Assembly: GCA_964368135.1 (NCBI GenBank)
Contig: CAYIZI010000001.1
Span: 42,926 to 106,925, forward strand
Length of the DNA stretch: 64,000 bases
From: an uncultured Candidatus Saccharibacteria bacterium
Lineage (GTDB): Bacteria; Patescibacteriota; Minisyncoccia; 2-02-FULL-40-12
Direction of reading: 5' to 3'
Numbering within the stretch: the first letter of the stretch is position 1; each line of letters begins with the position of its first letter. The notes under the pieces were generated by a model, which worked only from the letters and a program-made list of their open reading frames with translations, had not been told where the DNA came from and made no database searches. Position numbers and translations under genes: made by a program. Positions 12,951-59,463 of this stretch are shown one piece after another.

Positions 12951-13006
12951 TTCCTTCCGCCTTTCTTTTTAAACTGCTAATATATATTATACCACTAAAC
13001 GCCAAA

Positions 13007-35580: not shown

Positions 35581-37206
35581 TTAATCTTGGTTTTCCAAAA
35601 TTGGCTCGGTATTCAAAATATCCAAATACTCATCCCTTAATTGGTAAATATCGGCAAACGGATAAGAATCAACTAAATCGTATCTTTCAAATCCGGGCGT
35701 TCTTGAAACAAAACTCCATACCGAATCATTATCATCATGAGTCCGCATCACTATCCATCTTGCCCAATGGTCAGGCAGAGTTGTCGCCTCTTTCCAATAA
35801 TCGCCTGTTCCTTCATGGATGAATTTTTTCATCGGCATGCCGGACGAGAATATGATGGCGTCATGCGAAGCGGCGGATATTAATACAAATCCATCTTTAC
35901 CAGCGGCGTTTTGAGCCAGCCAGCCGCTTACTTCGGCGACGTTCTTCTGGCTTGAACCGACTCTGGCATCATCTATAGTAACCGCATCACCGCTTGAAAA
36001 CTGGAAAAAGAGAACAAAAAGAATCAATCCGATGATGACCGGCCTTAATTTTGAAACATAATGAATAAGATATCCGACAAATATCGCGATTGTCGGCATC
36101 AGCATTACTCCGTATCGGGCGTTAAACCAGGTGTCTCCTGATAAACCCTGAATAAATAATACCGAATGGCCAAGATAAAGAGCTAATATATTGAAGAAAA
36201 GGGGGGCCAACAAAACAAAAGTGGCAAAACGCACGCCTCGTCTTATATTCCCTGAAAACCAAAGAGCGACCGCCCCAACAAGACCCATAAGCGCTAAAAA
36301 CGCATTGGAATTATATGCCAAAGCGTAGAAATAGACTTTTAATGAAAAAAACCAATCCCCTTTTGTTGAAAGAACTCCGGCCGCTTCAAGCTGGGTCTGC
36401 TGGGTTCTGGCCGAATAAGGCCCGAAGGCAAAGTAAAGAGGATCGCCGAATATCAAAAGATTCCATAAAAACCACAATACTATGCCAAGCCCGGCCAGAG
36501 TAATGAATAAAATAAGCTTGCCCTCGGCCTGCTTATAGCCGTTTTTCTTCCATACGTAAAAAACAATCATCATTGAGGCTAAAACTAAAAGGAGCCAGCC
36601 GTCATACCTGACCAAGGTTGAAAGCATTATCCAAAAAGCTGACTTGACCAAGTCTACAACCTTGTCATCTTTGAACCACAGCATCAGATAATACGCACCC
36701 GCGGTCATAGCGGCGACAAGCGTTAATTCAGTCATGGCCGTTGACTGAAGATAAAGAACATTCAAATTTGAAGCAAATATCCCCACCCCGATTAATCTGC
36801 CGGTCATTTTAACTCCTATTTTTTCTAAGAACTTATAGATTATCAACCCGGTCAAAACAAAACCAAACATTGACCAGATCGTGCCGGCTAAGCCGGAATG
36901 CCACATAAAATCATTCCAGATTGTCAGGACCATAAGAAGGTGGGTAAGCGGCAGCCAGACGCTTCCCAACTGGGCAAACCCCGGCTTTAATCCCTCAACG
37001 ACCCGGCGGCCAATATCCAAGTGAGAACGGGCATCGTTATAAGCCAAGCTAAGCCCGTTCTGGAAATAAAACATGAAACTTAACACCGAGATAACTGATA
37101 GTATCGCCGCCACAATGGCAAAACCGTTTCTTTCAAAGAAAACTCCGACTCTATTTAGAGCATCGCTGCTTATATTGATTTTAATTACGCCCTTACTTTT
37201 GTTCAT
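35581..37206 (-). CDS. Polytopic GT-C-type glycosyltransferase-like membrane protein (ArnT/PMT-like)
   Basis: 541 aa, more than 10 TM helices, early loop YNDARSHLDIGRRV, and a soluble C-terminal domain. Confidence 0.45.
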   Translation of the reverse strand: MNKSKGVIKINISSDALNRVGVFFERNGFAIVAAILSVISVLSFMFYFQNGLSLAYNDARSHLDIGRRVVEGLKPGFAQLGSVWLPLTHLLMVLTIWNDFMWHSGLAGTIWSMFGFVLTGLIIYKFLEKIGVKMTGRLIGVGIFASNLNVLYLQSTAMTELTLVAAMTAGAYYLMLWFKDDKVVDLVKSAFWIMLSTLVRYDGWLLLVLASMMIVFYVWKKNGYKQAEGKLILFITLAGLGIVLWFLWNLLIFGDPLYFAFGPYSARTQQTQLEAAGVLSTKGDWFFSLKVYFYALAYNSNAFLALMGLVGAVALWFSGNIRRGVRFATFVLLAPLFFNILALYLGHSVLFIQGLSGDTWFNARYGVMLMPTIAIFVGYLIHYVSKLRPVIIGLILFVLFFQFSSGDAVTIDDARVGSSQKNVAEVSGWLAQNAAGKDGFVLISAASHDAIIFSSGMPMKKFIHEGTGDYWKEATTLPDHWARWIVMRTHDDNDSVWSFVSRTPGFERYDLVDSYPFADIYQLRDEYLDILNTEPILENQD

Positions 37207-38764
37207 TTTTTAAGAAAAATAAACTAACCATTAATGATAAAGTCACGGCTATTACTAAAGCTGTCATCATCTGATGATACTCTTGAGCGGTTAGGTATTG
37301 GCTGGCATATCTTTGGAATATAAACGACTTGGATTTATTCTTTTTCAATAAATCAAAATTTCTCTCATAAGTGAACTTTTCTTCTTTTCCTGACACCTCT
37401 TCAAGAGAAAGGACCTGCGCTTGCGGAGGATTAGTATCAGAAGTTATTGCTCCAAGAACATTAACCCAAACTGAATAGCTTACTAAAACAATAAATATTA
37501 TGCCGAATAAATAATTTTTCCTGAATTTAGTAAGAGCGAGTGAAAGGCCTATCCCTCCCAAGGCATAAGACGGAATCAGATATCTTGAACCAAATGCCCA
37601 CCCACCCCAAGGATCTCCCCAAAGAGAATAAAGAATTATATTAAATCCAATAGTTGCCAAAATTAAATTAGCGGCGGATCTATTTAACTTATACAAATAA
37701 GCAAAGCCCAAAATGCTTAAAAGAATAACCGGCGTGAACCAGACAATTCCCCTATCCGGACTTATGAAGTGGATATAAAATCCGTTAAGTAAATTCCTGG
37801 TTTTGAAAAATCCGACTGCTGTTTTCTCTTTATGGTAAGTTTTCTGTAGATTTAATAACTTGCTTATTTCTGATTGGGTTGGTAAACCTTTTTCATCTAT
37901 GGCCTCGACTGATTGAAGCGTACCGGGCAACTGGAATGGGTTGCCGGTAGAAGCCTGGTTAAACCATAGAAATAAAACGATGGGGGGGATAACGGCAAGT
38001 AGGGTTAAAAACCCGAGTATGTTGAAATTAATCTTTAATTTGAATTTTTCTTTTTCAATCCAGATTATTCTGGCCAAGGCAAAAACTCCAAGCGGAATCA
38101 TAAAAAATATGTTCGGGTTGTCCACCACGACCGAAAAGGCGATTAAAAACCATATCAAAGCCACTGACCAAAGATTATTCCAGCGGATAAGCGCATAAAT
38201 ACCCAATAGAATCAAAAAAGTTGATATATGATGCTGGTATAAAGTGGCGGCATAAGCAAAAGCCGGCGAAGCAAAAGCAAAAACAAGAGCCCCGATACTG
38301 GCCGCCAAAGGATTAGACCCTAACCTTATCGCTATCAACCTCACAAAGATTATATTCAAAAGAGCGAATAAAGCTGCGGTTGAAAATGCTCCCACTTGTG
38401 ATAATCCAAACTCTCTTCCTATCACGTAACCAGGTATAGCCAAAAAAGAAACACCCGGATTAAAAAGAGAAACATAACCGCCATTAACATAAGCAACATC
38501 TGGGGTAGTGAATTTGGCTAATGGCACTGAAAACTGAAAAGACTTATCCTCAACTAAAGAATAAGTCAAAGCAAATCTGCCCCTTTCCGGAGATAATTCA
38601 AAAGGCGCGCTTTCTGTAGGTTCATTAGGCTTCCACTGAGAAGTATTTAAGGCATCTTTGTTTGGATTTCCGGGAATGCCGCGCAAACCAAGAATTAAGA
38701 TAGCGGCGCAAAATAGTATAAACAATATGGCCGGAATTAATTGTAATATTTTAATTTTATCCAT
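37193..38764 (-). CDS. Polytopic GT-C-type glycosyltransferase-like membrane protein (ArnT/PMT-like)
   Basis: 523 aa, more than 10 TM helices, first loop FELSPERGRFALTYSLVEDKSF. Overlaps both neighbouring genes. Confidence 0.45.
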   Translation of the reverse strand: MDKIKILQLIPAILFILFCAAILILGLRGIPGNPNKDALNTSQWKPNEPTESAPFELSPERGRFALTYSLVEDKSFQFSVPLAKFTTPDVAYVNGGYVSLFNPGVSFLAIPGYVIGREFGLSQVGAFSTAALFALLNIIFVRLIAIRLGSNPLAASIGALVFAFASPAFAYAATLYQHHISTFLILLGIYALIRWNNLWSVALIWFLIAFSVVVDNPNIFFMIPLGVFALARIIWIEKEKFKLKINFNILGFLTLLAVIPPIVLFLWFNQASTGNPFQLPGTLQSVEAIDEKGLPTQSEISKLLNLQKTYHKEKTAVGFFKTRNLLNGFYIHFISPDRGIVWFTPVILLSILGFAYLYKLNRSAANLILATIGFNIILYSLWGDPWGGWAFGSRYLIPSYALGGIGLSLALTKFRKNYLFGIIFIVLVSYSVWVNVLGAITSDTNPPQAQVLSLEEVSGKEEKFTYERNFDLLKKNKSKSFIFQRYASQYLTAQEYHQMMTALVIAVTLSLMVSLFFLKNEQK

Positions 38765-46370: not shown

Positions 46371-49300
46371 TTACTTACTGATTATTGATAAAAACGCCTT
46401 GCTTGTTTTACTCCAGTCAAAATTACTGGCCCATTTTACTGCTTCCTGGCTCATCCGGTCGCGGAGATCCTTGTCTCGAATTATCGTTAAGATACTCTCC
46501 GCGAATGCATCGCTATTGCCGTAAGAAACAAGGCGGCCAGTTTCCATATTTTTCACAGAATCCCTTAAGCCCGGTACGTCAGAAGCCACTATCGGGGTGC
46601 CGCAAGCATTGGCTTCAATCGTGGTAATGCCCCACCCTTCCATAAACGAAGGATTTACAAATACCCAGGCTTTTTGAAAAAGTTCTATTTTCTCTTTTTC
46701 AGAAACCTTTCCTCTAAATACTACTTTGCCGTTAAGATTAAGTTCAGAGGCTAATCTTTTTAACGAATTTTCTTCTTCGCCGCTGCCGACAATGACCAAC
46801 CGGGCATCATCAACTTGTCTTATAACCTTTTCAAAAGCTCTTACTAAAACATCAACCGACTTATAGGCTTTAAGCCTTCCCAAATAAAGAATAGTCGGTT
46901 CCGGACTCTTTCTCCCAAGAGTTAAATTTTTAGAATTGACTCCGGGATGGACTATTTCAATTCCTTTCTTAGTTCCAAGGCCAAAACTCTGAATATCTTT
47001 TTTGCTTGATTCCGAAACCGTAATAAACTTTACATTCCGGTAGACTATGGGCATCAAATCCTTCTCTAAAAATATTGCCAGCTTTGCTAAGGGTTTAGGC
47101 AAAGAATGCCTGAAGACTTCCTGATGGATATGATGGATAAGACAATAAATCGGCTTCCTTGAATAGATGGGCGTAAAAAAAGGAATGCCGTTATGACAAT
47201 CAACTATGATGTCATATTTGCCTCTGAATTGGGTCAGGTAGTAAATAAAAGCCCAGAGGTAAACAAAGTAAAACCCGCCTCTTCTTATGATTTCAACCCC
47301 ATCTATAATTTCTCTTCTCTTTGAATAACTGTCATTGCCGCAAAAAACAGTGACCTGGTGTCCATCCTTGACCCACTGTTTGGCGATTTCGTGGACATAA
47401 AGTTCTGCTCCGCCACCATATATATGCCTTGTGTCTCTCCAGTTAAATATAAGAATCCTCTTGCCGAGCTTCGCCATCGGAGCCTCGGTTTCAATAGGTC
47501 TAAACGCATCTTTCAAATCAATAATGCCCCTCCAGACAAACTTAAGCCTGCCCTCAAGTACGTGGAATAAATAAACCAGGCCCAACCCAAAGATGCTGGC
47601 CCATAAAATAACATTGACTATCTCTTCGACGCTGCCGTGATTTAGGATTATGCCGATAGACATAAACAATGAAGCAGTCATTGAAATAATCGGGAATATA
47701 AATTGCCTTTTAGCCAAATGATAGACGACTATAGAATTTGAAATCGTGAAAACAGTAAGCGCGAGAGTGTAAATATTAAGATAAGGCAGAATGGCCAGCG
47801 TCTTGGAGCCAAAAAGTATCGGCACGGTTAAATTGCCCAGAGGGCCCAAAAAAATAAACCCGGCTAATGACAAAAGGACGGTTGAACCAACCAGCAGCTC
47901 AAATGTCTTTTTAGTATTTCTCTTTAATCCCTCGTCTCGGCCAATCAAAGTAATCATAAATATATTGGGCAGAGAGCCGAGAAAATATATCATCTTGCCG
48001 ACAAGCGATATTAGAGTGTACTCGCCGGCCAAACGCGGCGATAAAAAGTGTTTGACTAAAATAATGTCAATGCTTAAAAATATCGTCGCCGACATTAAAG
48101 TAAGTATTGAGGCGTAGAAAAACCTGCCCGGAAACTTATGGTTTTTAGTCTGAATAAAATCTTCAGAATGCCTTGAAACAGCCAAAACAGAAGCCATTGA
48201 AGCAACCGCTATGGATATCGGAATTGAAAGATAAACTAAATGATTTAACCCATACCAGGCGAAAAGAGCCGCCGCAATAAACTTACTTACTGATTCAAAA
48301 AGAATAACGAAAGCAACACTGGTAAAGTAAAGATTGCCATTAAGAAACCCCCTGTTTGCCGACGCAATCACTCCCAAAGTCAGAACCGGAGTGAACATAA
48401 AAAGGATGGACTGGCTGCTTATGTTAAAGAAATTAGAAAGGAATGAAACTGAAACTATCCACATTACCGATATGCCTAAGGCAATAGGAATTGCTTTGTT
48501 CAAAGTTGATTTGAGAAACGCAAGCGCCGACCCCTCACCCTTTTCAACGGCCAGATGAGCAGTCTTATGGTTTACCGTTGAGGAAACCGCGCCCATAAAT
48601 ATCGCCGCTACTGACCATAAAGTATTAACCAGTATCACTAGACTAAGTTCTTCAAAAGACAAAACCCTTCCCAGGAAAGCGTTAAAAAGAAAATTAAGGA
48701 AATTGGCGAACATCATCGCCGCAATCATAAGCGCCGCTCCCGAAAGAGCATTTTCGGTCAGCGATAACGGCAAAAATTTATTAGTGGTTTTTTTCAGCCA
48801 AGAATCTTTCTTTATAAAATTAAGAGTCAATTCAGGTTTCGGGGCCGGTCCCGATTTTATCGTCCCTAAAACAGGTAAGGGTTTTAATTTCTTTAAATGC
48901 AGGCCGTGCTTGGTCTTTTCCCAGAAATGCGGCTTAATGAAAAGCTGGTAAGTTGCCATTACCGCGGCAATACTCATAAAGAACCAATAGAAAGGTATTA
49001 AAAAGACATATTTTATTATTGGCCAGTGGCCCCTTTTGGCACAGCCGATCATGTAATAGTAAAAATAGAGAAAATTCCCGAAGACCAGAGAAAAAACGGC
49101 GATATAAAAGACCGGGGTCGGATATATTGATTCTATGGTCGGACCGACAACGGAACGCAGGGCGAAATAAGAGATCGTCATAAACCACAAAATTGGATTT
49201 ATAAGCATAAAGACAATTTTGCCGCCGATGTTAAGCTGGAAAAGAAAAGTATGGATGCCGCTTTTTTTCAAAAATTCCATCGGCTTTCTCATATGAACCA

Positions 49301-51047
49301 GATATGTCTGCATATAGCCCTTAATCCACCTTGACCTCTGCCTTATCCAGTTCCAAACCTGACTATTTGCTTCTTCAAGAGTTATTGAATCAATAATCGC
49401 CGTGTTGAAACCCTGTTTAAATAACCGCACCCCCAAGTCGGCGTCTTCGGTAACGTTGAAGGGATCCCAACCCTTAAGATTCCTTAAGTCGGCGGTCCGG
49501 AAATGGTTGCTGGTGCCGCCAAGAGGAATTGAAGTATTAATTGACTGAAGACCCGGCAGAATGATTTCAAACCACAACGAGTACTCGGCCGTAAAAAGCC
49601 GGGTCAAAAGATTTTGATTGGTGTTATAATAATTGAGTTTTGCCTGAAGACATTTAACTTTTTCTGGCACTCTTTGAAAAGCCAAATAAGCTTTCTTAAG
49701 CTGCTGGGGTTCGGGCATATCTTCGGCGTCGTAAACGACAAGATACTCACCCTTGGCTGAATTAAGACCATAATTGCAGGCCTTGGGCTTGGTCTTAGGC
49801 AAAGAGTGAGGAACGATTACTATCCTTACGTAGCTTGGCAAATCTATTGACCTGGCAGTATCTATTGTCTCTAAGTCGTTTTCTTCTAAAAGCAGCTGGA
49901 CATCCAATTTATCCTTAGGCCACTCCAATTTGCTTATTGAATTTAAAAATTTTGGAAGAACCGCTGATTCCCGATAAAGCGGGCAGAGAATCGCATAAAC
50001 CGGCAGAGAACTTTCGTCTATCCGGGAAAGTTCCTCATCAGTAAAACTAAGTTCCGGAGGATTATGCAGACTTTTTGTGATAAGGAATAAATTAAACAAA
50101 ACGTCAAAAAAGTATAGAGAGCTTAAAACAGCCATTAAAGCTATGGCCGTATAGAGCGGGAAAAATAAAAATCCGGCAACAGCCAAAATAACGGATAGAA
50201 ATATTAAAAATTTCTGGCTGGCGGTAAATGTGATTAGGGCCGAGGTTTCACTGTCAAGATTAGAATGAGTAATGAACCTTCTGCCTTTATGGGCCATTCC
50301 GGCGCCGATCATACTTGATTCGTCTTGCGGCGGTATTTGAATCGGCTTTTTCTTTTTTAACTTGTTGGCCAACGCGTTAGTGCCTATTTCCCAACTGGCT
50401 TTTATGACATTGATTTTTGATTCACCGGAATGCCTCTTTTCAAAATCTATATTAACGGTGGCTATTTCATGGCCGGCGTATCTGGCGTTAACCAAGAATT
50501 CCAGATCAAAGGTCCACTGGGACGGATTAACTGCTATTTCCTTGGTTATCTGTTTTTTAAAAACTTTTAACCCTGACTGGACATCGCACTTAAGCCCGTG
50601 AAGAATCCGGCCAAAAACAAAATTAAAACCTTTGCTGGCCAGCTTTCTTAAGGGGCTTATGCCTTTATAACGTCTATTGGCCACAACTACGCCGGCGCCA
50701 TCTCTAATTTTTCTCACCATTTCCGGTATCGCTTCCGGCGGGTACTGCAGGTCAGCGTCAATCATCCCGACAGTGTCATACTTGGCATAATCAAAACCCT
50801 CAAGAATAGAAAAGGCCTTACCCTTTTTGCCTTTCTTCAAATGACAACTAATTGGATATTCGTCGGCCAGATTATTGGCAATCTTAACCGTATTATCGGT
50901 TGAGTGGTCATCTATTGTGACTATTTCATACTCAATACCGCCTTTTTTTAAAGCATTATCAATCCTCTTGACTAACTTCTGGATATTTCCTTCTTCATTA
51001 AAAGTAGGAATAATTATTGATACTTTTTCAGTGTTTTTGGCCTCCAT
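46371..51047 (-). CDS. 1558-aa multidomain glycan-assembly protein: GT2 (polyprenyl-phosphate-sugar-synthase-like) + processive GT2 + MOP/Wzx-like flippase + GT4
   Basis: aa 8-230: IIIPTFNEE, DDHSTDNT, DADLQYPP. aa 347-585: YDAED, TEDADL, QRSRW. aa ~765-1165: about 12 TM helices with a polysaccharide-biosynthesis/flippase-like N-terminus. aa 1196-1558: EGWGITTIEANACGTPIVASDVPG. Confidence 0.8.
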   Translation of the reverse strand: MEAKNTEKVSIIIPTFNEEGNIQKLVKRIDNALKKGGIEYEIVTIDDHSTDNTVKIANNLADEYPISCHLKKGKKGKAFSILEGFDYAKYDTVGMIDADLQYPPEAIPEMVRKIRDGAGVVVANRRYKGISPLRKLASKGFNFVFGRILHGLKCDVQSGLKVFKKQITKEIAVNPSQWTFDLEFLVNARYAGHEIATVNIDFEKRHSGESKINVIKASWEIGTNALANKLKKKKPIQIPPQDESSMIGAGMAHKGRRFITHSNLDSETSALITFTASQKFLIFLSVILAVAGFLFFPLYTAIALMAVLSSLYFFDVLFNLFLITKSLHNPPELSFTDEELSRIDESSLPVYAILCPLYRESAVLPKFLNSISKLEWPKDKLDVQLLLEENDLETIDTARSIDLPSYVRIVIVPHSLPKTKPKACNYGLNSAKGEYLVVYDAEDMPEPQQLKKAYLAFQRVPEKVKCLQAKLNYYNTNQNLLTRLFTAEYSLWFEIILPGLQSINTSIPLGGTSNHFRTADLRNLKGWDPFNVTEDADLGVRLFKQGFNTAIIDSITLEEANSQVWNWIRQRSRWIKGYMQTYLVHMRKPMEFLKKSGIHTFLFQLNIGGKIVFMLINPILWFMTISYFALRSVVGPTIESIYPTPVFYIAVFSLVFGNFLYFYYYMIGCAKRGHWPIIKYVFLIPFYWFFMSIAAVMATYQLFIKPHFWEKTKHGLHLKKLKPLPVLGTIKSGPAPKPELTLNFIKKDSWLKKTTNKFLPLSLTENALSGAALMIAAMMFANFLNFLFNAFLGRVLSFEELSLVILVNTLWSVAAIFMGAVSSTVNHKTAHLAVEKGEGSALAFLKSTLNKAIPIALGISVMWIVSVSFLSNFFNISSQSILFMFTPVLTLGVIASANRGFLNGNLYFTSVAFVILFESVSKFIAAALFAWYGLNHLVYLSIPISIAVASMASVLAVSRHSEDFIQTKNHKFPGRFFYASILTLMSATIFLSIDIILVKHFLSPRLAGEYTLISLVGKMIYFLGSLPNIFMITLIGRDEGLKRNTKKTFELLVGSTVLLSLAGFIFLGPLGNLTVPILFGSKTLAILPYLNIYTLALTVFTISNSIVVYHLAKRQFIFPIISMTASLFMSIGIILNHGSVEEIVNVILWASIFGLGLVYLFHVLEGRLKFVWRGIIDLKDAFRPIETEAPMAKLGKRILIFNWRDTRHIYGGGAELYVHEIAKQWVKDGHQVTVFCGNDSYSKRREIIDGVEIIRRGGFYFVYLWAFIYYLTQFRGKYDIIVDCHNGIPFFTPIYSRKPIYCLIHHIHQEVFRHSLPKPLAKLAIFLEKDLMPIVYRNVKFITVSESSKKDIQSFGLGTKKGIEIVHPGVNSKNLTLGRKSPEPTILYLGRLKAYKSVDVLVRAFEKVIRQVDDARLVIVGSGEEENSLKRLASELNLNGKVVFRGKVSEKEKIELFQKAWVFVNPSFMEGWGITTIEANACGTPIVASDVPGLRDSVKNMETGRLVSYGNSDAFAESILTIIRDKDLRDRMSQEAVKWASNFDWSKTSKAFLSIISK

Positions 51048-52702: not shown

Positions 52703-53179
52703 TTAACGAGTGACTTCGATTATTTGTCCAAGCTCAGCTGAAGGCGCACTAATTGTAACCCTTCCAGCTGAATCAACTTCTAAATCATAGCCAGTATCGT
52801 CTCCTACTGCTGATGTTGGATCTGTAGGAAATGACGGAACGTATGTTGGTGTAAGGCAAGAAAGATCAATATCTCCTGCCACGGCACCAGAAGTAACAAT
52901 ATCGACTGCCGAACCGGCAGCTGGAAGCGATGGACATGTATATGTAGTGCCGCCGATTGTGAATGAACCGCTGAAAATTCCTTTATTATCAGCAATCCTT
53001 TGGCCAACTGAGTTCAAAATAGTGTTAGCATTACTGGTTCTCTGGGTATTTCTGCCTTGGGCAAACTGTCTGGCTGGGTTTATGGCGATCAAGACAATAG
53101 TTGCTAAAATAGCAATAATCCCGATAACTACCAGAATTTCAATAAGGGTAAAGCCCCTATTTTTTCTTTGATTTTTCAT
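52703..53179 (-). CDS. pilA: Type IV pilin (prepilin with class III signal peptide), probable major subunit
   Basis: MKNQRKNRG/FTLIEILVVIGIIAILATIVLIAINP: canonical G/F cleavage site and Glu+5. Own promoter-like signal and AGGAG SD. Last gene of the operon. Confidence 0.8.
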   Translation of the reverse strand: MKNQRKNRGFTLIEILVVIGIIAILATIVLIAINPARQFAQGRNTQRTSNANTILNSVGQRIADNKGIFSGSFTIGGTTYTCPSLPAAGSAVDIVTSGAVAGDIDLSCLTPTYVPSFPTDPTSAVGDDTGYDLEVDSAGRVTISAPSAELGQIIEVTR

Positions 53180-53269: not shown

Positions 53270-53731
53270 TTATGGAAAATTTCCTATCTCTTCCCAAGAT
53301 TCAACTTCTATTTTGCCAAATGGTTTTGAAACAATTATTTCAAGATTAGTATAGGAACTTTTATTGCCGTCTTGAGGGTATTTGCCTTGAACTTGGATTG
53401 TCTTAGTCCCAGAGCCGGATATTGAATAAATAATACATGAATCATCACCAACCGGAATAGTTTCGCCAGGCGGCGAAAGCGAGTAATCATTAAATTCGTC
53501 ATCATTTAGCGCCTGTAATTTTAAAATCGCGGTGTCGGCGCAGGCCTCGGCCAAGCCAATGCTTTTTTCCTTAAACTCTGAATCAAGAACATTTATCCTG
53601 GCGAAAAAACTGCGAAAGCCCAAAGCAAAAGTAATAGTCATCAAAATAATGGCAATAATGACCGTAGAAATCAAAGCAATATAGCCGTTTTTATTTCCGG
53701 ATAAATTTGGTGGTCTCATAATAAAAATCAT
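53270..53731 (-). CDS. Minor pilin-like protein lacking Glu+5 (PilX/GspK-like position)
   Basis: SGNKNG/YIALISTVIIAIILMTITFAL hydrophobic N-terminus without Glu at +5. Overlaps the upstream gene by 41 nt. Confidence 0.45.
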   Translation of the reverse strand: MIFIMRPPNLSGNKNGYIALISTVIIAIILMTITFALGFRSFFARINVLDSEFKEKSIGLAEACADTAILKLQALNDDEFNDYSLSPPGETIPVGDDSCIIYSISGSGTKTIQVQGKYPQDGNKSSYTNLEIIVSKPFGKIEVESWEEIGNFP

Positions 53732-54209
53732 TTAAGTAAAAGTTGGTCTTGACTGCTGGGGGCTGGCCAGTGGCTGAAGGAGGAATATACTCAAAGCTCA
53801 AAGTGGCGGCTTTTACGCTATCGCTGTCTAAGGCCAAAAAAACTCCTATCCCTGGATCAATCTCAATATTTTCGTTAACCAATCTAAATTTGACTCGTTG
53901 GGATAAACCATATTTATCAACTGACAGTTCATCCCCTTCTGGCGGGATAATTATTGGAGTTGGGTTTGATAAATCTATTCCAGTCAACGCCCAATTTATT
54001 TTCCGCAAAACAAAGTTGGCCTCGTCGCTGATTAAAACCTTAATGTTGGAACGGTCGGTTGCTTCAATAACTGAATAAACCGAAACAATCACTCCGGCCA
54101 TTAATAGAGAAAAAAGAGCTATATATATTAGCACTTCAATAATGGTAAATCCATTTTCGTGACTAAATTTAGACATCAGAAAATCAATTGCAAACTGGTG
54201 ATGGTTCAA
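53691..54209 (-). CDS. Pseudopilin/minor pilin with prepilin N-terminus
   Basis: SHENG/FTIIEVLIYIALFSLLMAGV. Confidence 0.65.
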   Translation of the reverse strand: MNHHQFAIDFLMSKFSHENGFTIIEVLIYIALFSLLMAGVIVSVYSVIEATDRSNIKVLISDEANFVLRKINWALTGIDLSNPTPIIIPPEGDELSVDKYGLSQRVKFRLVNENIEIDPGIGVFLALDSDSVKAATLSFEYIPPSATGQPPAVKTNFYLNDFYYETTKFIRK

Positions 54210-55785
54210 TAATCCGCAGTTTGCTTTGTTGGTTAGTTACTGTGTAGATAACGTCGTTCTCATAAGCAAAGTTTTGCGGGTCTACTGAAAAGTTATAGGG
54301 ACAGGTATCCCATCTCTCAATATTGGCCGGATCACTTACATCTAAAACAAGAAAGGGGTCGTTGGGATCTCTTGTTGTAACAAAAGCTAACTGTCCTGAA
54401 ACTTTAATGCCGGTAATGCCCGCACCCTGGTTATAATTAAAAAAATCATTAAAGTTTACTGACCCAGGAGCAGAAGATAAGTCGTTAGTATCAACAACGT
54501 AAAAATCTCGGTCATTCCCTGGATTTGAACGTCCTATTCCAAGATAAATTTTATTTCCAATAACATATAAATCTCTCCCGTCTTTTGAACTTGCCGAACC
54601 GTCGGCTCTTTCCGCATCAAAGGTACCGGCAATAGTTATATTTAAAGGATTGGCTATATTAAGAACGATAATTTCCTCGTTATTAGAAGAAGTGGCAAGA
54701 TAGGCCCTATCCTCTCTTACTTCAATATCATTGATATTATGATCTACTTGGGTAGAGCCTGTATTCCCAAGGTGAACGGGGTTTGTTGGATCAGTTACAT
54801 CAAAAATGTGAAACTCCGAACCGCCAACTCTATGGGTACCTATATAAATGCGGTTATTGTAATAAGCAATGCTTCGTCCGCCGGGACAAGTAAAATTACA
54901 AGTTCCACTTACTCCGGGTAAAGACACAGAAGCAATTTGAATAGGCGCCGCGGGGTCAGTCACATCAATTACCTGGAGTTGGCCGCTGGCTTTTTCATTG
55001 CCGCTGCCACTGCCGTCATCCGGATCGTAAAAATCTCCGTGGATACTGGCCGCAAAAATATAACGTTTATTTAACGATTGAAAATCAACGGCCACTAAAT
55101 CAACAATCCCGTTTAGTTTTTTACCTGGTCCCCAATCCACCCCGATACTCCCTAAAAAAACTGGGTTTGAAGTATTAGCCGCATCATAAATAAATAGGTC
55201 ATCTAAATTTTCATTAGAATCATAGACCCCTAAGTAAACAATCTTATTCAGGACGGCAATACTTTCACCGTTAACAGTATTTATAATAATATTGTCGTGA
55301 TTGGTTACGGGATTCCTCCAATTATCATTTGACGGAGATATTATGGAACAATTACTGCCAGCATCAATAAAAGCTTTTAGACTGCCGATAATACTAGAAA
55401 TACTTATTGATTGAGGCCTGTTTTCCACATCCCAATCAATAGTACTTTTAATTTCTTTGACACAGGGAGAGATATCTAATACTTCTAAAGTTTTAGTGTA
55501 AATGTCAGTCGTAGTCGGAGTTGTAGAAATAATGGAGTTAAATTCTCCGACTGTACCACGAGATTGAGCTCGAGTATTCTCAAGTTCCTCTTGAGCAAAA
55601 TACAAAGCTTCCTGATTTGTCTCGGTGTCTATTTCGGTTGACTGACCGCCAAACAAAACCATTATCACCGCGGAAATCGTCAAAACGAAAATAAACATCG
55701 CAATCATAATTTCCATTGTGGTCAGACCGCTTTCTAACCCGCTCTGGCGCTTAAGTTTCTTAGTAATTGATCCGGCCTTGTTCAT
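54184..55785 (-). CDS. Pseudopilin N-terminus fused to an LVIVD-repeat beta-propeller
   Basis: LESG/LTTMEIMIAMFIFVLTISAV. Then repeated strands LFIYDAANTSNPV, LQVIDVTDPAAPI, FHIFDVTDPTNPV, IIVLNIANPLN, FYVVDTNDLSS, FLVLDVSDPANI. Confidence 0.65.
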   Translation of the reverse strand: MNKAGSITKKLKRQSGLESGLTTMEIMIAMFIFVLTISAVIMVLFGGQSTEIDTETNQEALYFAQEELENTRAQSRGTVGEFNSIISTTPTTTDIYTKTLEVLDISPCVKEIKSTIDWDVENRPQSISISSIIGSLKAFIDAGSNCSIISPSNDNWRNPVTNHDNIIINTVNGESIAVLNKIVYLGVYDSNENLDDLFIYDAANTSNPVFLGSIGVDWGPGKKLNGIVDLVAVDFQSLNKRYIFAASIHGDFYDPDDGSGSGNEKASGQLQVIDVTDPAAPIQIASVSLPGVSGTCNFTCPGGRSIAYYNNRIYIGTHRVGGSEFHIFDVTDPTNPVHLGNTGSTQVDHNINDIEVREDRAYLATSSNNEEIIVLNIANPLNITIAGTFDAERADGSASSKDGRDLYVIGNKIYLGIGRSNPGNDRDFYVVDTNDLSSAPGSVNFNDFFNYNQGAGITGIKVSGQLAFVTTRDPNDPFLVLDVSDPANIERWDTCPYNFSVDPQNFAYENDVIYTVTNQQSKLRIIEPSPVCN

Positions 55786-56275
55786 TGATGGTTATGGTTA
55801 AGGGAGGTTTACCCACGCTAATCAGAGTAATCTCAAGCGGCGCCGCCGCTACATTCCCAGTCAGCTGCTCAAAATTTATAATCCCGGACCAGGCTATCCC
55901 TAATCTTTCTATCGGGATACTTTCATTGCTTGGATCATTTGGAACGTAAACTGAACCTTCAAAAATTACAAGCTCTTTTTTAGCGTCATCATAATAAACG
56001 CTGTAAGACGACTGATTAATATTGCTGACGGCCTGATTCCTGGCTTTCTGCAAAATACTTATCACTATATCTTTGTCGTAATTAAAAGAATAGGTTCGGT
56101 AAAAATCCATACTCAAAAAAAGGCCGATGCCCATTAGCAGAACCAAAATACCGATGGCAACCAGAATTTCAATAATAGAGAATCCGTTACTACGCCGGCC
56201 GGCTAAATTAAGGCGAGAGGTTCCTGGTAATTTCATAAATCGGGGTAATGATTGAAACAGCAATAAAGCCGACAA
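55760..56275 (-). CDS. Pseudopilin (GspH/FimT-like) with prepilin N-terminus
   Basis: RRSNG/FSIIEILVAIGILVLLMGIGL. The true start may be the internal ATG at 56236. Confidence 0.65.
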   Translation of the reverse strand: MSALLLFQSLPRFMKLPGTSRLNLAGRRSNGFSIIEILVAIGILVLLMGIGLFLSMDFYRTYSFNYDKDIVISILQKARNQAVSNINQSSYSVYYDDAKKELVIFEGSVYVPNDPSNESIPIERLGIAWSGIINFEQLTGNVAAAPLEITLISVGKPPLTITINEQGRINY

Positions 56276-57278
56276 TCAAACCCATAAACACCATCAAAGC
56301 CGGCTCAAGGATCGTAGATAAATTCTTAGTCAGTTCGTCCATCTCGGCCTCATACATTTCGGCCAGATAAAGTAAAGTTTCATCCAAGCGGCCGGTTGAT
56401 TCGCCGATTTCAATCAAATGAGTCAAAATATGCGGGAAAAGGTCTGGCCTTCTTTCCATCTGACTGACTATTTTTTCGCCCTTAACCACGCACTTTGAAA
56501 TCTTCACAAGTTCGTTTCGGTAGACCAGATTAGTGGTCGTCTGCGAGGCAATTAAAAAAGCATTAATCACTCTGATGTCGCTTTTGATCAAAATTCCAAG
56601 GGTCCGGCAAATATTGGCCAAGTGATAATTCTTGAATATCGGACCAATCAAAGGCATTTTAAAGCTGGCCAGGTGCAGAAGATAGCGAAACTTATCCGAA
56701 GTCCTAAAAAAAACAATTAAACCAACCGCCAAAACAATAATCCCGGCAACTAAAAACAACCCATAGGCCTTCAAAAAATCAACGCTGGCAATCAGGGCCC
56801 GGGTAGTAAGGGGCAGGTTCACATTCAAACTGGCGAAAATCGGCAAAATCTTCGGGAAAATATAAAGAGTTAAAAGGCCGGCCAAACCTAAAGTAGCAAT
56901 AATTATAAAAATCGGATAAACCAGCGCGCCCATCACTTTACGCTGCAGGGCCTGCTTTTTCTTCATCTCATCGGCCAAATAGTTCAGGTTCTCGTCCAGA
57001 GTACCGCTCTCTTCGCCGACCCGAATCAAATTAATGGCCAGCTGGTCAAAGTTATGCCGAAACTTAGCCAAACTGCTTGAAAGATACTGACCGTTGGAAA
57101 CGTCTTTAATCACCTGGTCAAGAACCAATGACTTGGCGCCCGATGGACTTTGTTTTCTTAAAATATTTAAACTCTGGAGCAAGGGCACGCCGGCCTTAAC
57201 CAAAAAAGACAGCCGCTTGGCAAAAAGGGTTTTCTCTTTTACGGAAATTCTGGTAAATAACTCTCTTAATCTACTCAT
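56208..57278 (-). CDS. pilC: Type IV pilus platform protein PilC (T2SS F family)
   Basis: Two T2SSF repeats (FAKRLSFLVKAGVPLLQSL...; LANICRTLGILIKSDIRV...), three TM segments. Ends ITPIYEITRNL. Confidence 0.85.
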   Translation of the reverse strand: MSRLRELFTRISVKEKTLFAKRLSFLVKAGVPLLQSLNILRKQSPSGAKSLVLDQVIKDVSNGQYLSSSLAKFRHNFDQLAINLIRVGEESGTLDENLNYLADEMKKKQALQRKVMGALVYPIFIIIATLGLAGLLTLYIFPKILPIFASLNVNLPLTTRALIASVDFLKAYGLFLVAGIIVLAVGLIVFFRTSDKFRYLLHLASFKMPLIGPIFKNYHLANICRTLGILIKSDIRVINAFLIASQTTTNLVYRNELVKISKCVVKGEKIVSQMERRPDLFPHILTHLIEIGESTGRLDETLLYLAEMYEAEMDELTKNLSTILEPALMVFMGLIVGFIAVSIITPIYEITRNLSP

Positions 57279-58503
57279 TGATCACTCTCAAAACTTCCTC
57301 CAGAGTGGTAATGCCTTCTTTGGCTTTCCTGATGCCGTCCTCAACTATAGTGGTCATCCCATTGCCGGAAGCGATTAACTTAATCTCATTGGCCGAAGCC
57401 CTCCTTAAAAAAGCTTCTCTGACCATATTGTCTACAACCATCACTTCAAATATGCCGACTCGGCCCTGAAAACCGGTCTCGCCGCATTTCTCACAGCCCC
57501 TGCCGTAATAAAACTGCCAGTTGGAATCTGAACCCAAAACCGAATTCTGGAAAAAATTTTCCAAGCTCTTCTTTTCGGCGTCGGTCAGCTTTCTTAAAGT
57601 TTTGCATTTGGGGCAAATTTTCCTGACCAATCTCTGGGCAATGGCCAAGTTGACCGTTGAAGCAACCAGGTACGGCTCAACTTTCATATCTAATAATCTG
57701 GGCAAAGTGGTGGCCGCGTCATTGGTATGCAAAGTGGACAAAAGCAGGTGGCCGGTTAAAGCGGTGTTGACAGCTAAGGCCGCGGTCTCAACATCTCTGA
57801 TTTCGCCAACCATTATTATATCGGGGTCCTGCCGTAAAATTGACCTTAGTCCGTTGGCAAAGTTTAAGCCGACCCGGGAATTAACCTGAATCTGTTCAAT
57901 TCCTTCAACCGCGTATTCAATCGGGTCCTCCACCGTGACAATTGAAACATCTTTGTTGTTTAAAAATTTTAAAACGGTGTAAAGAGTGGTGGTTTTGCCA
58001 GATCCGGTCGGTCCGGTGGCTAAAATCATGCCGTGACTTTTTTTGGCGGCCCTCAAAACCTTTTCCTTGTCTGACGGACTAAAGCCAAGTTTATCCAAAG
58101 TGTATTCTTCTTCCTTATCTGATAAAAGACGCAAAACCGCGTTCTCGCCGTAATAGGTTGGAGCTACGGAAACGCGAATATCAATCGGCGCCTGCCCGTC
58201 AAAAGCAATACTGAACCGGCCGTCTTGAGCAGTCTGGTGTTCGTCAGTCCTTAAGTTTGATAAAATTTTAATTCTGGAAACCACCTCTGATTTGATTTCT
58301 CTTGGAAAAGTAAAAAAATCCTGCAAAACGCCGTCAATTCTAAACCTGATTCTGACTCCCTTTGTGCCCGGGTCAATATGAATATCCGAAGCCCGCGAGT
58401 TGTGGGCGTATTCTATTAAGTTGTCCACCAGGCTGATTAAGGAAATCTGTTCAGAGTTTTGCTCAATTTCCCGCTCAATTTTATTTCTTAGTTCTGTTGA
58501 CAT
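57271..58503 (-). CDS. pilB: Type IV pilus assembly ATPase PilB (GspE family)
   Basis: Walker A GPTGSGKTTTLY, Asp box, Walker B DPDIIMVGEIRD, His box GHLLLSTLHTNDA, tetracysteine CPKC...CEKC. Confidence 0.85.
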   Translation of the reverse strand: MSTELRNKIEREIEQNSEQISLISLVDNLIEYAHNSRASDIHIDPGTKGVRIRFRIDGVLQDFFTFPREIKSEVVSRIKILSNLRTDEHQTAQDGRFSIAFDGQAPIDIRVSVAPTYYGENAVLRLLSDKEEEYTLDKLGFSPSDKEKVLRAAKKSHGMILATGPTGSGKTTTLYTVLKFLNNKDVSIVTVEDPIEYAVEGIEQIQVNSRVGLNFANGLRSILRQDPDIIMVGEIRDVETAALAVNTALTGHLLLSTLHTNDAATTLPRLLDMKVEPYLVASTVNLAIAQRLVRKICPKCKTLRKLTDAEKKSLENFFQNSVLGSDSNWQFYYGRGCEKCGETGFQGRVGIFEVMVVDNMVREAFLRRASANEIKLIASGNGMTTIVEDGIRKAKEGITTLEEVLRVINE

Positions 58504-58614: not shown

Positions 58615-59181
58615 GTATAGGCCAATAAACGCAGCCAGGGTGTTAAAAACGATATTGCCTAAAGTCATCGGAATCATCAGCCGCCAGTAAGGATAGTGAA
58701 TAAAACCAAGGGGCATGACCACCAAATCATCAGGCAGAGGGATAAAAGCGCCGTAGCTGAAAATGGCCAGACTGGCCAGCCACTTGGGATGAGACAAAGA
58801 CCATTCATAAGCCCGGTCAATGGTTTTTTGAATTCTTGAAGGGATAATTTCCCGGCCATGATATGCAATAACATAAGAAGTTGAATCACCCAAGAAAAGG
58901 CCGATGCCGGCCACAAAACCCAAAAGAAATGGGTTTAACCCGCCGGCGGCAAAAGTCATCACAAAGAGATAATAAGGAATCGGAACAAAGGTTGAGATGC
59001 CGCCCAAGAAAGCCAAAACAAAGGTAATCAAATAGCCGTTTCGGACGCCCAGAATCTCAATAATGTCAGCCGGCGGAATCCGGTAAATAAAAACTGTCCA
59101 GGCGACAAAAAGAGCAATCAGGATTAAAAAAGGAAATTGGGCTTTACTAACTATCCCCCGCACCTTTTCTGAATAGGTCAA
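58597..59181 (-). CDS. YqaA/DedA-like (VTT-domain-like) membrane protein
   Basis: 194 aa, TTG start. FLGGISTFVPIPYYLFVMTFAAGGLNPFLLGFVAGIGLFLGDSTSY. Both gene ends lie inside the repeat copies. Confidence 0.5.
   Translation of the reverse strand: MTYSEKVRGIVSKAQFPFLILIALFVAWTVFIYRIPPADIIEILGVRNGYLITFVLAFLGGISTFVPIPYYLFVMTFAAGGLNPFLLGFVAGIGLFLGDSTSYVIAYHGREIIPSRIQKTIDRAYEWSLSHPKWLASLAIFSYGAFIPLPDDLVVMPLGFIHYPYWRLMIPMTLGNIVFNTLAAFIGLYTPHLF
59156..59174. repeat. Inverted 19-bp copy of the repeat core
   Basis: ccccgcaccttttctgaat is the reverse complement of attcagaaaaggtgcgggg (58595-58613 and 59441-59459). Encodes residues 3-8 of the membrane protein. Confidence 0.95.
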
Positions 59182-59435
59182 GACGACAAACTGCCGAGTA
59201 TTCTTCTCTTAAGCTGAGAATATACTTTACCGAACTGTTTCAGTTTTTTCTCACGGTTTCTGACGTCTTGACCGTTTAGATAACCTTCACAATAAACTAA
59301 CTTCCAAGGAATGAAAGCTTTAGTCGACCGATTATATCCTAAATTATGTTCTCTTATCCTTTTTAAAATATTAGTTGTTATGCCAATATATAATTTCTTG
59401 TTTTTATCGCTTTTCAATAAATAGACATAGAACAT
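59178..59435 (-). CDS. Small stand-alone GIY-YIG nuclease-family protein (85 aa)
   Basis: MFYVYLLKSDKNKKLYIGITTNILKRIREHN...PWKLVYCEGY...RNREKKLK. Only the last 85 codons of track ORF 59178-59765 are credible. Confidence 0.75.
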   Translation of the reverse strand: MFYVYLLKSDKNKKLYIGITTNILKRIREHNLGYNRSTKAFIPWKLVYCEGYLNGQDVRNREKKLKQFGKVYSQLKRRILGSLSS

Positions 59436-59460
59436 AATAAATTCAGAAAAGGTGCGGGGT
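59430..59460. repeat. 31-bp direct repeat, copy 2
   Basis: Identical to 58584-58614. Contains the GIY-YIG start codon and begins 3 nt after the stop of the 345-aa gene. Confidence 0.95.
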
Positions 59461-59463
59461 TCA

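What the first reader, a model, noticed from the sequence alone, without database searches (positions are those of the whole stretch)
54184..55785. Pseudopilin fused to an LVIVD-repeat beta-propeller: candidate pilus-tip adhesin
The N-terminus (G/LTTMEIMIAMFIFVLTISAV) is a class III signal peptide with Glu+5, so the protein should be incorporated into the pilus. The remaining ~480 aa contains at least six regularly spaced hydrophobic-strand-Asp-x-(S/T)-(D/N)-P units (LQVIDVTDPAAPI, FHIFDVTDPTNPV, FLVLDVSDPANI and others) of the LVIVD propeller type. Its position among the minor pilins that prime assembly suggests a tip location. For an episymbiotic lifestyle this would be the obvious host-recognition module.
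Basis: partly seen in the sequence, partly recalled or inferred. Interest (0 to 1): 0.6.

Follow-up and report, generated by a model that had tools for sequence, protein, structure and literature searches.

The report
Minor pilin carrying a beta-propeller head
This gene from an ultra-small groundwater bacterium encodes a pilus subunit fused to a seven-bladed propeller domain, which probably sits at the pilus tip and grips a target; this design is already known, so it is a well-supported new example and not a new principle.

Summary

The gene is second of four minor-pilin genes, and the fourth lacks Glu5. They lie in a seven-gene cassette (ATPase, platform, four minor pilins, major pilin) that recurs in 37 Patescibacteria species genomes.

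Tip display of the propeller as a ligand-binding head is the best reading, but it is inferred, not shown. The propeller is acidic (pI 4.3), so it is unlikely to bind DNA. It has no conserved His cluster, so it is unlikely to be an Sb-PTE-type enzyme. Within Yanofskybacteria it is as conserved as the ATPase, apart from one apparent cassette swap.

The design has precedent. Modular pilins were described by Raynaud et al. 2021, whose dataset already lists pilin-LVIVD architectures. In Saccharibacteria, PilX2 is a propeller-bearing minor pilin needed for host binding. Verdict: a new member of a known kind, of moderate interest.

The parts
54184..55785 (-). Gene for the 533-aa bimodular minor pilin (pilin module plus LVIVD propeller), stop codon included
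   Evidence: ORF list. An identical protein, P0001, is in public assemblies.
55726..55785 (-). Leader peptide, aa 1-20: basic and ending in Gly20. The predicted prepilin-peptidase cleavage is G20|L21.
   Evidence: The G-x-[ST]-T-x-E motif is conserved. This segment has low pLDDT in the model. Cleavage is inferred.
55561..55725 (-). Alpha1 helix, aa 21-75, with Glu25 at mature position +5. The hydrophobic N-terminal half is the predicted polymerisation interface.
   Evidence: AF2 helix H21-75. E25 is present in 51/53 homologs. Weak profile matches to the Geobacter PilA-N and PilA N-termini.
55348..55560 (-). Pilin head, aa 76-146: a four-strand antiparallel sheet with the conserved Cys108-Cys146 pair
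55294..55347 (-). Linker, aa 147-164, containing the conserved W156 and P159
   Evidence: Alignment consensus GGDC....P..xW.NP. pLDDT is 77-89 here, and the whole-chain pTM of 0.86 suggests a fixed orientation between the two modules.
54187..55293 (-). Seven-bladed LVIVD-type beta-propeller, aa 165-533. It is acidic (pI 4.3, net charge -24).
   Evidence: Pfam PF08309 scores above its cutoff, and TIGR04312 gives a partial match. The model has 27 strands of 3 or more residues, which I group into 7 blades. Foldseek finds propellers, top hit 5hrm at E 9e-11. Seven sequence units. pI.
57271..58503 (-). Extension ATPase (PilB/GspE type, 410 aa), first gene of the cassette
   Evidence: Pfam T2SSE E 8e-123. 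NCBIfam GspE 509 bits and PilB 487 bits, against ComGA 251 bits.
56208..57278 (-). Platform protein (PilC/GspF type, 356 aa)
   Evidence: Pfam T2SSF E 4.8e-51. NCBIfam GspF and PilC score higher than ComGB.
55760..56275 (-). Minor pilin 1 (GFSIIE, Glu5; probably begins at 56236, giving 158 aa). Weak GspH/ComGD-like matches.
   Evidence: Pfam N_methyl. Weak ComGD and PRK10506 matches. Gene call in L006. N-termini across loci.
53691..54209 (-). Minor pilin 3 (GFTIIE, Glu5; probably begins at 54176, giving 161 aa)
   Evidence: Pfam N_methyl E 8.8e-7. Weak GspI/GspJ N-terminal matches..
53270..53731 (-). Fourth pilin-like protein (G|YIALIS). It has no Glu at +5 in all five loci examined, as in GspK/PilX-type tip subunits.
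   Evidence: N-termini across five loci. A 'noE5' ORF is present in 28 of 37 further loci. It has no Pfam or NCBIfam match. The comparison with GspK rests on established knowledge.
52703..53179 (-). Probable major pilin (158 aa; GFTLIEILVVIGIIAILA), last gene of the cassette
   Evidence: It has the strongest N_methyl match in the operon, E 1.2e-9. TIGR02532. It is conserved at the 3' end of the cassette. Its 'major' status is inferred.

Best explanation
The gene encodes a bimodular ('modular') minor type IV pilin.

Shown by computation:
- A prepilin-type signal with Gly-1 and Glu+5.
- A canonical pilin lollipop whose head resembles the core tip pseudopilins GspI and GspK.
- A C-terminal seven-bladed LVIVD beta-propeller, packed in a confidently predicted orientation against the pilin head.
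- The gene is the second of four minor-pilin genes in a compact, widely conserved cassette: ATPase, platform, minor pilin, LVIVD pilin, minor pilin, pilin without Glu5, major pilin.

Inferred mechanism:
1. A prepilin peptidase encoded elsewhere in the genome cleaves the protein after Gly20.
2. The four minor pilins assemble on the platform protein into the priming complex, with the subunit that lacks Glu5 uppermost.
3. Polymerisation of the major pilin underneath pushes this complex outwards, so it ends up as the pilus cap.
4. The propeller is therefore displayed at the pilus tip as a ligand-binding head. Its most likely target is a surface structure of another cell. It would play the role that the separate PilY1 propeller plays in Gram-negative T4aP, and that the PilX2 propeller pilin plays in Saccharibacteria.
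For: Signal. The G-x-[ST]-T-x-E motif is conserved: E25 in 51/53 homologs and G20 in 46/53. Position +5 is E in 132 of 133 further representatives. N_methyl matches 10/25 and ComGE 8/25 homolog N-termini. The family profile weakly matches Geobacter and other PilA N-termini.

Propeller. PF08309 scores above its cutoff. There are seven units. Foldseek hits are all propellers.

Context. Gene overlaps suggest translational coupling within the operon. The same gene order is seen in Jorgensenbacteria, Pacebacteria and another genome, and in 37 GTDB species genomes from at least 9 candidate phyla or classes.

Family size. The pilin-module profile finds 241 50%-identity clusters at E<=1e-30, mostly ~500 aa.

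Outward-facing C-terminus. Longer relatives add 1-4 Ig-like Big_3_5 domains after the propeller.

Precedents. Modular pilins are argued to be tip-exposed (PMC8179133). The TM7x PilX2 propeller pilin is needed for host binding but not for filament extrusion (PMC11623550). Four-minor-pilin tip complexes are described in other type 4 filaments (PMC12153270).
Against: - Pfam N_methyl does not hit this particular protein at E<=1.
- The equivalog models for GspI, PilV and ComGE are far below their cutoffs.
- Foldseek on the pilin module alone found nothing significant.
- No prepilin peptidase, PilT or PilMNO was found in the window ORFs I scanned, so processing and retraction cannot be addressed.
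- Tip location and ligand binding are inferences. No multimer model could be run.
- The propeller is as conserved as the ATPase within Yanofskybacteria. That is not what a rapidly adapting host-specificity determinant usually looks like.
- No ligand is known for any LVIVD domain (PMC2447325 and PMC10210494).
Confidence: 0.7

Rival explanations
1. The cassette builds a competence (Com-like) pilus for DNA uptake, and the propeller pilin is part of its tip. Its role would be in DNA capture or pilus priming, not host recognition.
For: The inventory is the same as the Com pilus: ATPase, platform, five pilins, and no PilMNO or PilT nearby (Com composition from PMC12153270). There are weak ComGE, ComGD and ComGF HMM matches. 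Patescibacteria are thought to depend on scavenged nucleotides (my own knowledge). dprA lies in the same window.
Against: The ATPase and platform score much higher with GspE/PilB and GspF/PilC models than with ComGA/ComGB: 509/487 vs 251 bits and 278/242 vs 139 bits, all below the equivalog cutoffs. The gene order differs from comG, with the major pilin last. The propeller is strongly acidic (pI 4.3, net -24; family median 4.45, net -17), so it is a poor DNA binder. In the Com pilus, DNA is bound by an electropositive ComGD-ComGF interface, not by an added module. A DNA-uptake pilus could still carry an adhesive head, so the two roles do not exclude each other.
Confidence: 0.15
2. The protein is never polymerised. 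The N-terminal helix serves as a plain membrane anchor (pseudopilin-like, cleaved or not), and the propeller is held at the cell surface as a fixed surface protein or assembly factor.
For: Pfam N_methyl does not hit this protein. The +1 residue varies in the family: F, S, I, Q, V and others. TM7x PilX1 and PilX2 are reported to lack canonical PilD signals. No experiment shows incorporation into a pilus.
Against: Glu+5 and Gly-1 are almost invariant across hundreds of clusters. A mere anchor would not need them. The head has a GspI/GspK fold. Its fixed place inside the four-minor-pilin block in 37 genomes points to co-assembly.
Confidence: 0.08
3. The propeller is an enzyme delivered by the pilus, for example a hydrolase acting on the partner's envelope, like the LVIVD-type propeller phosphotriesterase of Sphingobium.
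For: The closest solved structure by Foldseek is the 7-bladed phosphotriesterase 5hrm (E 9e-11). It is also weakly matched by the family profile through LVIVD-like motifs (E 0.042). Raynaud et al. list modular pilins with peptidase modules.
Against: Only one His (H326, within the structural EFHIFDV strand) is conserved in the family. The other four His are present in 5-23 of 53 sequences. A binuclear metal centre of the Sb-PTE type, with several His ligands (my own knowledge), is therefore unlikely. The conserved positions are the structural repeat residues. TM-scores to 5hrm are only 0.46-0.49 at 11% identity.
Confidence: 0.05

Closest known systems
Modular type IV pilins (Raynaud et al. 2021, PMC8179133), e.g. 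S. sanguinis PilB (vWA module) and PilC (lectin module). Their InterPro survey includes the IPR012902-IPR013211 (LVIVD) architectures.
   Different: In that paper the LVIVD architecture is only tallied, as a 'motif of unknown function'. No structure, operon context or role is given. Here the module is a complete seven-bladed propeller on a GspI/GspK-like head. The gene is a fixed member of a four-minor-pilin block, not an accessory pilin. This protein would not have been picked up by the IPR012902 criterion, because N_methyl does not hit it at E<=1.
PilX2 of Nanosynbacter lyticus TM7x (Saccharibacteria T4P-2; PMC11623550)
   Same: A Patescibacteria minor pilin with a C-terminal seven-bladed beta-propeller, encoded among minor pilins. 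It is needed for efficient host binding but not for filament extrusion, and is proposed to be the tip adhesin.
   Different: The PilX2 propeller is of RCC1 type and PilX2 is reported to lack a canonical PilD signal. The protein here has an LVIVD propeller with no RCC1 match in Pfam and a canonical Gly-1/Glu+5 signal. The host clade is Paceibacteria/'Parcubacteria', not Saccharibacteria. There is no experimental evidence here.
PilY1/PilC tip adhesin of Gram-negative T4aP
   Same: A beta-propeller associated with a four-minor-pilin priming and tip complex, with a role in adhesion (as summarised in PMC8179133).
   Different: PilY1 is not a pilin. It is Sec-exported and docks non-covalently onto the minor pilins. 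Its propeller belongs to a different family (IPR008707), for which there is no Pfam match here. In this protein the propeller is covalently fused to a core minor pilin.
T2SS tip pseudopilins GspI and GspK (PDB 3ci0, 2ret, 5bw0)
   Different: The extra domain of GspK is an alpha-domain inserted into the sheet, not a C-terminal propeller. The equivalog HMMs for GspI, PilV and ComGE are not met. The organism probably has no outer membrane to secrete across (my own knowledge).
Sphingobium sp. TCM1 phosphotriesterase (PDB 5hrm), a seven-bladed propeller with LVIVD-like strands
   Same: It is the closest solved propeller by Foldseek and is weakly matched by the family profile through DV-x-DP motifs.
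   Different: It is a soluble enzyme with a binuclear metal centre. No comparable conserved His cluster is found here, sequence identity is 11%, and it has no pilin module.

Membership tests
Type IV pilin / pseudopilin (class III signal peptide, IPR012902 / PF07963) | Short basic leader ending in Gly, then a hydrophobic stretch of about 20 residues with Glu at mature position +5 | tested here: met
   The sequence is ...KKLKRQSGLESG|LTTMEIMIAMFIFVLTISAVIMVLF. G20 is present in 46/53 homologs and E25 in 51/53. E+5 is present in 132/133 representatives.
Type IV pilin / pseudopilin (class III signal peptide, IPR012902 / PF07963) | Match to the N_methyl / TIGR02532 HMM | tested here: inconclusive
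   This protein has no match at E<=1. Ten of 25 homolog N-termini match N_methyl, best E 2.5e-4. The three flanking pilins that carry Glu5 all match.
Type IV pilin / pseudopilin (class III signal peptide, IPR012902 / PF07963) | Lollipop fold: an N-terminal helix of about 50 residues packed on an antiparallel beta-sheet | tested here: met
Type IV pilin / pseudopilin (class III signal peptide, IPR012902 / PF07963) | Cleavage and N-methylation by a prepilin peptidase, and incorporation into a filament | not testable with these tools
   No peptidase gene was found in the window ORFs scanned. This needs biochemistry or imaging.
Type IV pilin / pseudopilin (class III signal peptide, IPR012902 / PF07963) | Encoded with type 4 filament machinery | tested here: met
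   T2SSE and T2SSF lie immediately upstream, and further pilin or pilin-like genes flank the gene on both sides. The arrangement is conserved and in 37 loci.
LVIVD repeat (PF08309 / IPR013211) beta-propeller | Pfam model score above the gathering cutoff | tested here: met
   26.2 bits against 20.2, E 4.9e-6, with one repeat individually significant (aa 459-488). Most homologs carry PF08309.
LVIVD repeat (PF08309 / IPR013211) beta-propeller | Tandem repeats of about 45-55 residues that fold as propeller blades | tested here: met
   Seven units with spacings of 45-73 residues. The model has 27 strands of 3 or more residues, grouped into 7 blades. Foldseek hits are propellers.
Core tip minor pilin of GspI / PilV / ComGE class | Structural similarity of the head to GspI-type pseudopilins | tested here: met
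Core tip minor pilin of GspI / PilV / ComGE class | Equivalog HMM score above its cutoff | tested here: not met
   ComGE scores 20.6 against 49 and PilV 13.3 against 52.2. GspI is not listed. The protein is therefore not filed as an ortholog, only as a structural and positional analogue.
Core tip minor pilin of GspI / PilV / ComGE class | Forms a complex with the other minor pilins at the filament tip | not testable with these tools
   No multimer prediction is available. The inference rests on synteny.
PilY1 / PilC tip adhesin | PilY1-type C-terminal propeller (IPR008707) on a non-pilin, Sec-exported protein | tested here: not met
   No such Pfam match, and the protein has a pilin N-terminus. 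It may work like PilY1 but is not a member.
RCC1-propeller minor pilin (TM7x PilX2) | RCC1 repeats in the propeller | tested here: not met
   Pfam lists LVIVD and Beta_propel only. No PilX2 sequence was available for a direct comparison.
Com pilus (T4dP) of monoderms | ComGA/ComGB-type ATPase and platform, and comGA-GG gene order | tested here: not met
   ComGA scores 251 bits (cutoff 300) against GspE 509 and PilB 487. ComGB scores 139 (cutoff 240) against GspF 278. The major pilin gene is last, not third.
Sb-PTE-like propeller hydrolase | Conserved metal-ligand His/Glu cluster | tested here: inconclusive
   Only H326 is conserved, in 43/53 sequences. The other His are present in 5-23 of 53. 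No residue-level structural alignment to 5hrm could be made.

The most novel reading that the evidence does not exclude
In Paceibacteria/'Parcubacteria' the tip adhesin and a core priming pilin are one polypeptide. A GspI-like minor pilin fused to an LVIVD propeller would be an obligatory component of a minimal seven-gene type 4 filament. Host range would be changed by swapping the head-plus-propeller cassette through recombination at the conserved alpha1-coding segments of adjacent pilin genes, as the window/L009 mosaic suggests.
Probability: 0.25. Interest if true: 0.6.

Novelty: new member of a known kind. Interest (0 to 1): 0.4.

Why it matters
Paceibacteria/'Parcubacteria' are among the most diverse and least cultivated bacteria, and how they find and hold a partner cell is unknown. 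This protein family gives a concrete candidate for the contact point: at least 241 clusters at 50% identity, in a conserved seven-gene pilus cassette. Such a candidate could be used for binding assays, for nanobody or cryo-ET labelling, or as bait to identify hosts. It would also give the LVIVD repeat, which has had no assigned function since 2004, a first biological context. The principle itself (a functional module grafted onto a pilin, and a propeller pilin used for host binding in Saccharibacteria) is already established, so the gain is incremental.

Tried and rejected
- Sequence search of the whole protein against PDB chains found nothing meaningful.
It worked only with seven close sequences, so the 37 loci are a lower bound, biased to sequences that share two short peptide patterns.
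- Promoter and terminator scans of the operon were at chance level: 19 found vs 15.9 expected, and 8 vs 7.7. They were not used.
- A search for a prepilin peptidase in the window found nothing. It used a regex for G.GD[VAIFLM][KR] over six frames plus Pfam scans of 26 further ORFs.
- An internal start at Met24 is rejected because the residues before it (G20 and the S/T-T) are conserved in homologs.
- A DNA-receptor role for the propeller is rejected as unlikely because of its acidity.
- Sb-PTE-like catalysis is rejected as unlikely because there is no conserved His cluster.
- A T2SS reading is rejected on context. The cassette has only ATPase, platform and pilin genes; no secretin gene is among them or among the window ORFs scanned. 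That these organisms lack an outer membrane is my own knowledge.
Full report
**What is there**

The ORF at 54184-55785 on the minus strand is real and encodes 533 aa. An identical protein occurs in public assemblies of 0.1-µm-filtered Hainich groundwater (well H51) and in one further sequencing run. Its closest named relatives are Candidatus Yanofskybacteria (65-66% identity). The wider family is found only in Patescibacteria.

The gene lies in a tight minus-strand cassette with overlapping or nearly abutting genes:
- a PilB/GspE-type ATPase (57271-58503);
- a PilC/GspF-type platform protein (56208-57278);
- a 158-171-aa pilin (55760-56275);
- the 533-aa protein;
- a 161-172-aa pilin (53691-54209);
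- a 149-153-aa pilin-like protein (53270-53731);
- after a 90-nt gap, a 158-aa pilin with the strongest N-methylation-motif match in the operon, probably the major subunit (52703-53179).

**The N-terminus**

The sequence KKLKRQSGLESG|LTTMEIMIAMFIFVLTISAV has the form of a class III signal. In an alignment of 53 homologs sharing only 22-76% identity, Gly20 is kept in 46 and Glu25 (mature +5) in 51. The consensus is G-x-S-T-x-E-x-L-I-A.

A profile of the pilin module, searched against 1.84 billion representative proteins, finds 241 clusters at E<=1e-30 and 1755 at E<=1e-10. Among 138 new representatives, 133 carry the motif, with Glu at +5 in 132 and Asp in 1.

The Pfam N_methyl model does not hit this protein at E<=1, but it hits 10 of 25 homolog N-termini, and ComGE hits 8. 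The family profile gives borderline matches to Geobacter PilA-N and other PilA N-termini in the PDB. An internal start at Met24 is excluded, because the residues upstream of it are conserved.

**Fold**

AlphaFold2 with the 53-sequence alignment gives a confident model (pLDDT 88.3, pTM 0.86). It has a disordered leader, one continuous helix (residues 21-75), a four-strand antiparallel sheet (91-134), a short linker and an all-beta domain from about 165 to the C-terminus. This domain has 27 strands of three or more residues, which I group into seven blades.

The sequence shows seven units of the type hhhhD-h-(S/T)-(D/N)-P, at residues 197, 270, 325, 372, 428, 478 and 523. Shuffles give a mean of 0.07.

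Pfam LVIVD scores above its gathering cutoff (26.2 vs 20.2 bits), and the LVIVD-related TIGR04312 model gives a partial match. Foldseek against the PDB returns only propellers. The top hit is the seven-bladed Sphingobium phosphotriesterase 5hrm (E 9e-11, TM 0.46-0.49). The family profile also matches 5hrm weakly through DV-x-DP strands.

**Context across genomes**

The order ATPase, platform, pilin, LVIVD pilin, pilin, small pilin-like protein, pilin is found in:
- Jorgensenbacteria, Pacebacteria and another long contig;
- Yanofskybacteria;
- 37 GTDB species-representative genomes, as judged by crude motif-based gene calling. These are labelled Yanofsky-, Zambryski-, Giovannoni-, Vogel-, Doudna-, Kaiser- and Colwellbacteria, Paceibacteria and Minisyncoccia.

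In five loci examined in detail, the three ordinary flanking pilins have GF(T/S)xxE. The small fourth protein always has G(Y/F)IA(L/V/I)(I/V)S, with no Glu at +5. By established knowledge of the T2SS GspK-GspI-GspJ complex, a Glu5-less subunit is the one at the very top of the tip complex.

The four minor pilins thus look like the H-I-J-K set found in T2SS, T4aP and Com pili (PMC12153270), with the propeller pilin in the second position. The ATPase and platform resemble GspE/PilB and GspF/PilC much more than ComGA/ComGB. No PilT, PilMNO or prepilin peptidase was found among the other window ORFs scanned.

**Most likely mechanism**

Shown by computation: the signal motif, the pilin fold, the propeller and the synteny.

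Inferred: cleavage after Gly20; assembly with the other three minor pilins into the priming complex on the platform protein; extrusion on top of the growing major-pilin filament; and display of the propeller at the pilus cap as a binding head.

Several observations fit an outward-facing, non-enzymatic binding role that does not involve DNA:
- longer relatives append one to four Ig-like Big_3_5 domains after the propeller;
- the propeller is strongly acidic, with pI 4.3 and net charge -24 (family median pI 4.45, net -17);
- only one His is conserved in the family.

I put about 0.7 on 'tip-displayed modular minor pilin with a ligand-binding propeller'. I am much less certain about the identity of the ligand.

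Against three Yanofskybacteria loci, amino-acid identity to the window proteins is:

| Protein or module | Identity |
|---|---|
| Propeller | 69-78% |
| ATPase (two loci) | 67-72% |
| Pilin module of the same protein | 57-72% |
| Major pilin (two loci) | 57-59% |
| Other minor pilins | 38-59% |

So the propeller is not generally fast-evolving.

The closest strain by ATPase (L009, 88%) is an exception. Its protein is 100% identical over the first 64 residues, but only 55-60% identical in the pilin head and 38-42% in the propeller. At the DNA level, a 400-nt patch (window 56032-55633) is 94-100% identical, and the start of the downstream pilin gene (54148-54049) is 94% identical. These two patches bracket a segment of 30-64% identity, against a 55-93% background in the ATPase and platform genes. 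That propeller allele is at most 43% identical to any other retrieved family member.

This looks like a head-plus-propeller cassette exchange by recombination in the alpha1-coding segments. However, L009 is a 5.9-kb contig from a metagenome assembly whose project code (ERP119705) I could not tie to the window's source, so an assembly chimera is not excluded.

**Comparison with what is known**

The concept is established.
- Raynaud et al. 2021 (PMC8179133) defined modular pilins, argued they are tip-exposed, and tallied InterPro architectures. About 30 proteins with IPR012902 followed by one to thirteen IPR013211 units are listed, including a Candidatus Falkowbacteria protein. The motif is described only as being 'of unknown function'. 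IPR013211 is the LVIVD repeat (PMC10210494).
- In Saccharibacteria TM7x, PilX2 is a minor pilin with a seven-bladed RCC1 propeller. It is required for efficient host binding but not for filament extrusion (PMC11623550).
- PilY1 is the classical non-pilin propeller at the T4aP tip.

The present protein is not a member of the PilY1 or RCC1 families, and the equivalog models for GspI, PilV and ComGE are not met. It works like those proteins and is a member only of the broad pilin and LVIVD families.

Full-text searches found no paper describing this Parcubacteria family, its operon or its structure.

**Verdict**

Tip location is well motivated but inferred, and host recognition is an analogy. In novelty it is a new member of a known kind.

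Three points go beyond the catalogue entry:
- the propeller pilin is a fixed core component of a minimal, very widespread cassette;
- its head has the GspI/GspK fold;
- there is one possible cassette swap.

Interest is moderate (0.4).

Noticed in passing
window 54050-56050 compared with L009/L015 (CAYHZG010000029.1): Mosaic identity between two related strains. DNA is 94-100% identical over the 3' part of the pilin-1 gene plus the leader and alpha1 of the LVIVD pilin (56032-55633), and 94% identical at the 5' end of the next pilin gene (54148-54049). Between these patches, the pilin-head and propeller segment is only 30-64% identical. The background in pilB/pilC is 55-93%. This suggests a cassette swap by recombination in the alpha1-coding segments. 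An assembly chimera is not excluded.
   Followed up: partly
window 59178-59765 (-); L011 6264-9633: A small GIY-YIG nuclease domain ORF (Pfam E 6e-14, aa 111-177 of the stop-to-stop ORF) lies just upstream of the pilus cassette. It sits in a ~1.1-kb stretch, together with the VTT-domain gene, that is absent from L009. In the Yanofskybacteria locus L011, GIY-YIG domains are called at the N-termini of three consecutive pilin genes, including the LVIVD pilin (P0006, 624 aa). GIY-YIG elements therefore seem to insert repeatedly in and around this cassette.
   Followed up: partly
P0215, P0211, P0237 (relatives from the representative library): Some family members of 700-1073 aa carry one to four Ig-like Big_3_5 domains after the propeller (P0215 has four). 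The C-terminal end of the propeller can therefore be extended by further surface modules.
   Followed up: partly
L001/L002 5312-6004: In Jorgensenbacteria an extra 230-aa hydrophobic protein gene sits between the first minor pilin and the LVIVD pilin. The LVIVD pilin there has Asp instead of Glu at +5.
   Followed up: no
window 46371-51047 (-): A 1558-aa ORF fuses several glycosyltransferase domains (GT2, GT4/GT1) with long membrane regions. It lies a few genes downstream of the pilus cassette, next to sugar-nucleotide genes.
   Followed up: no
window 12935-14404 (+): A PMT-family protein O-mannosyltransferase (Pfam E 1e-53). It could glycosylate surface proteins such as pilins. Not examined further.
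   Followed up: no
window 25967-27103 (-) and 24137-25960 (-): dprA (DNA-processing protein A) lies directly upstream of topoisomerase I. This is relevant to the question of whether the organism takes up DNA.
   Followed up: no
window 35581-38764 (-) and 6164-7441 (-): Three large ORFs (541, 523 and 425 aa) have no Pfam match at E<=1e-5.
   Followed up: no
L015-L018 and other loci: Many third-party-annotated (TPA) MAG records carrying this Paceibacteria-type cassette are titled 'uncultured Candidatus Saccharibacteria bacterium'. The closest named relatives of these proteins are Yanofskybacteria and other Parcubacteria. The label is probably a generic or wrong taxonomic assignment.
   Followed up: no
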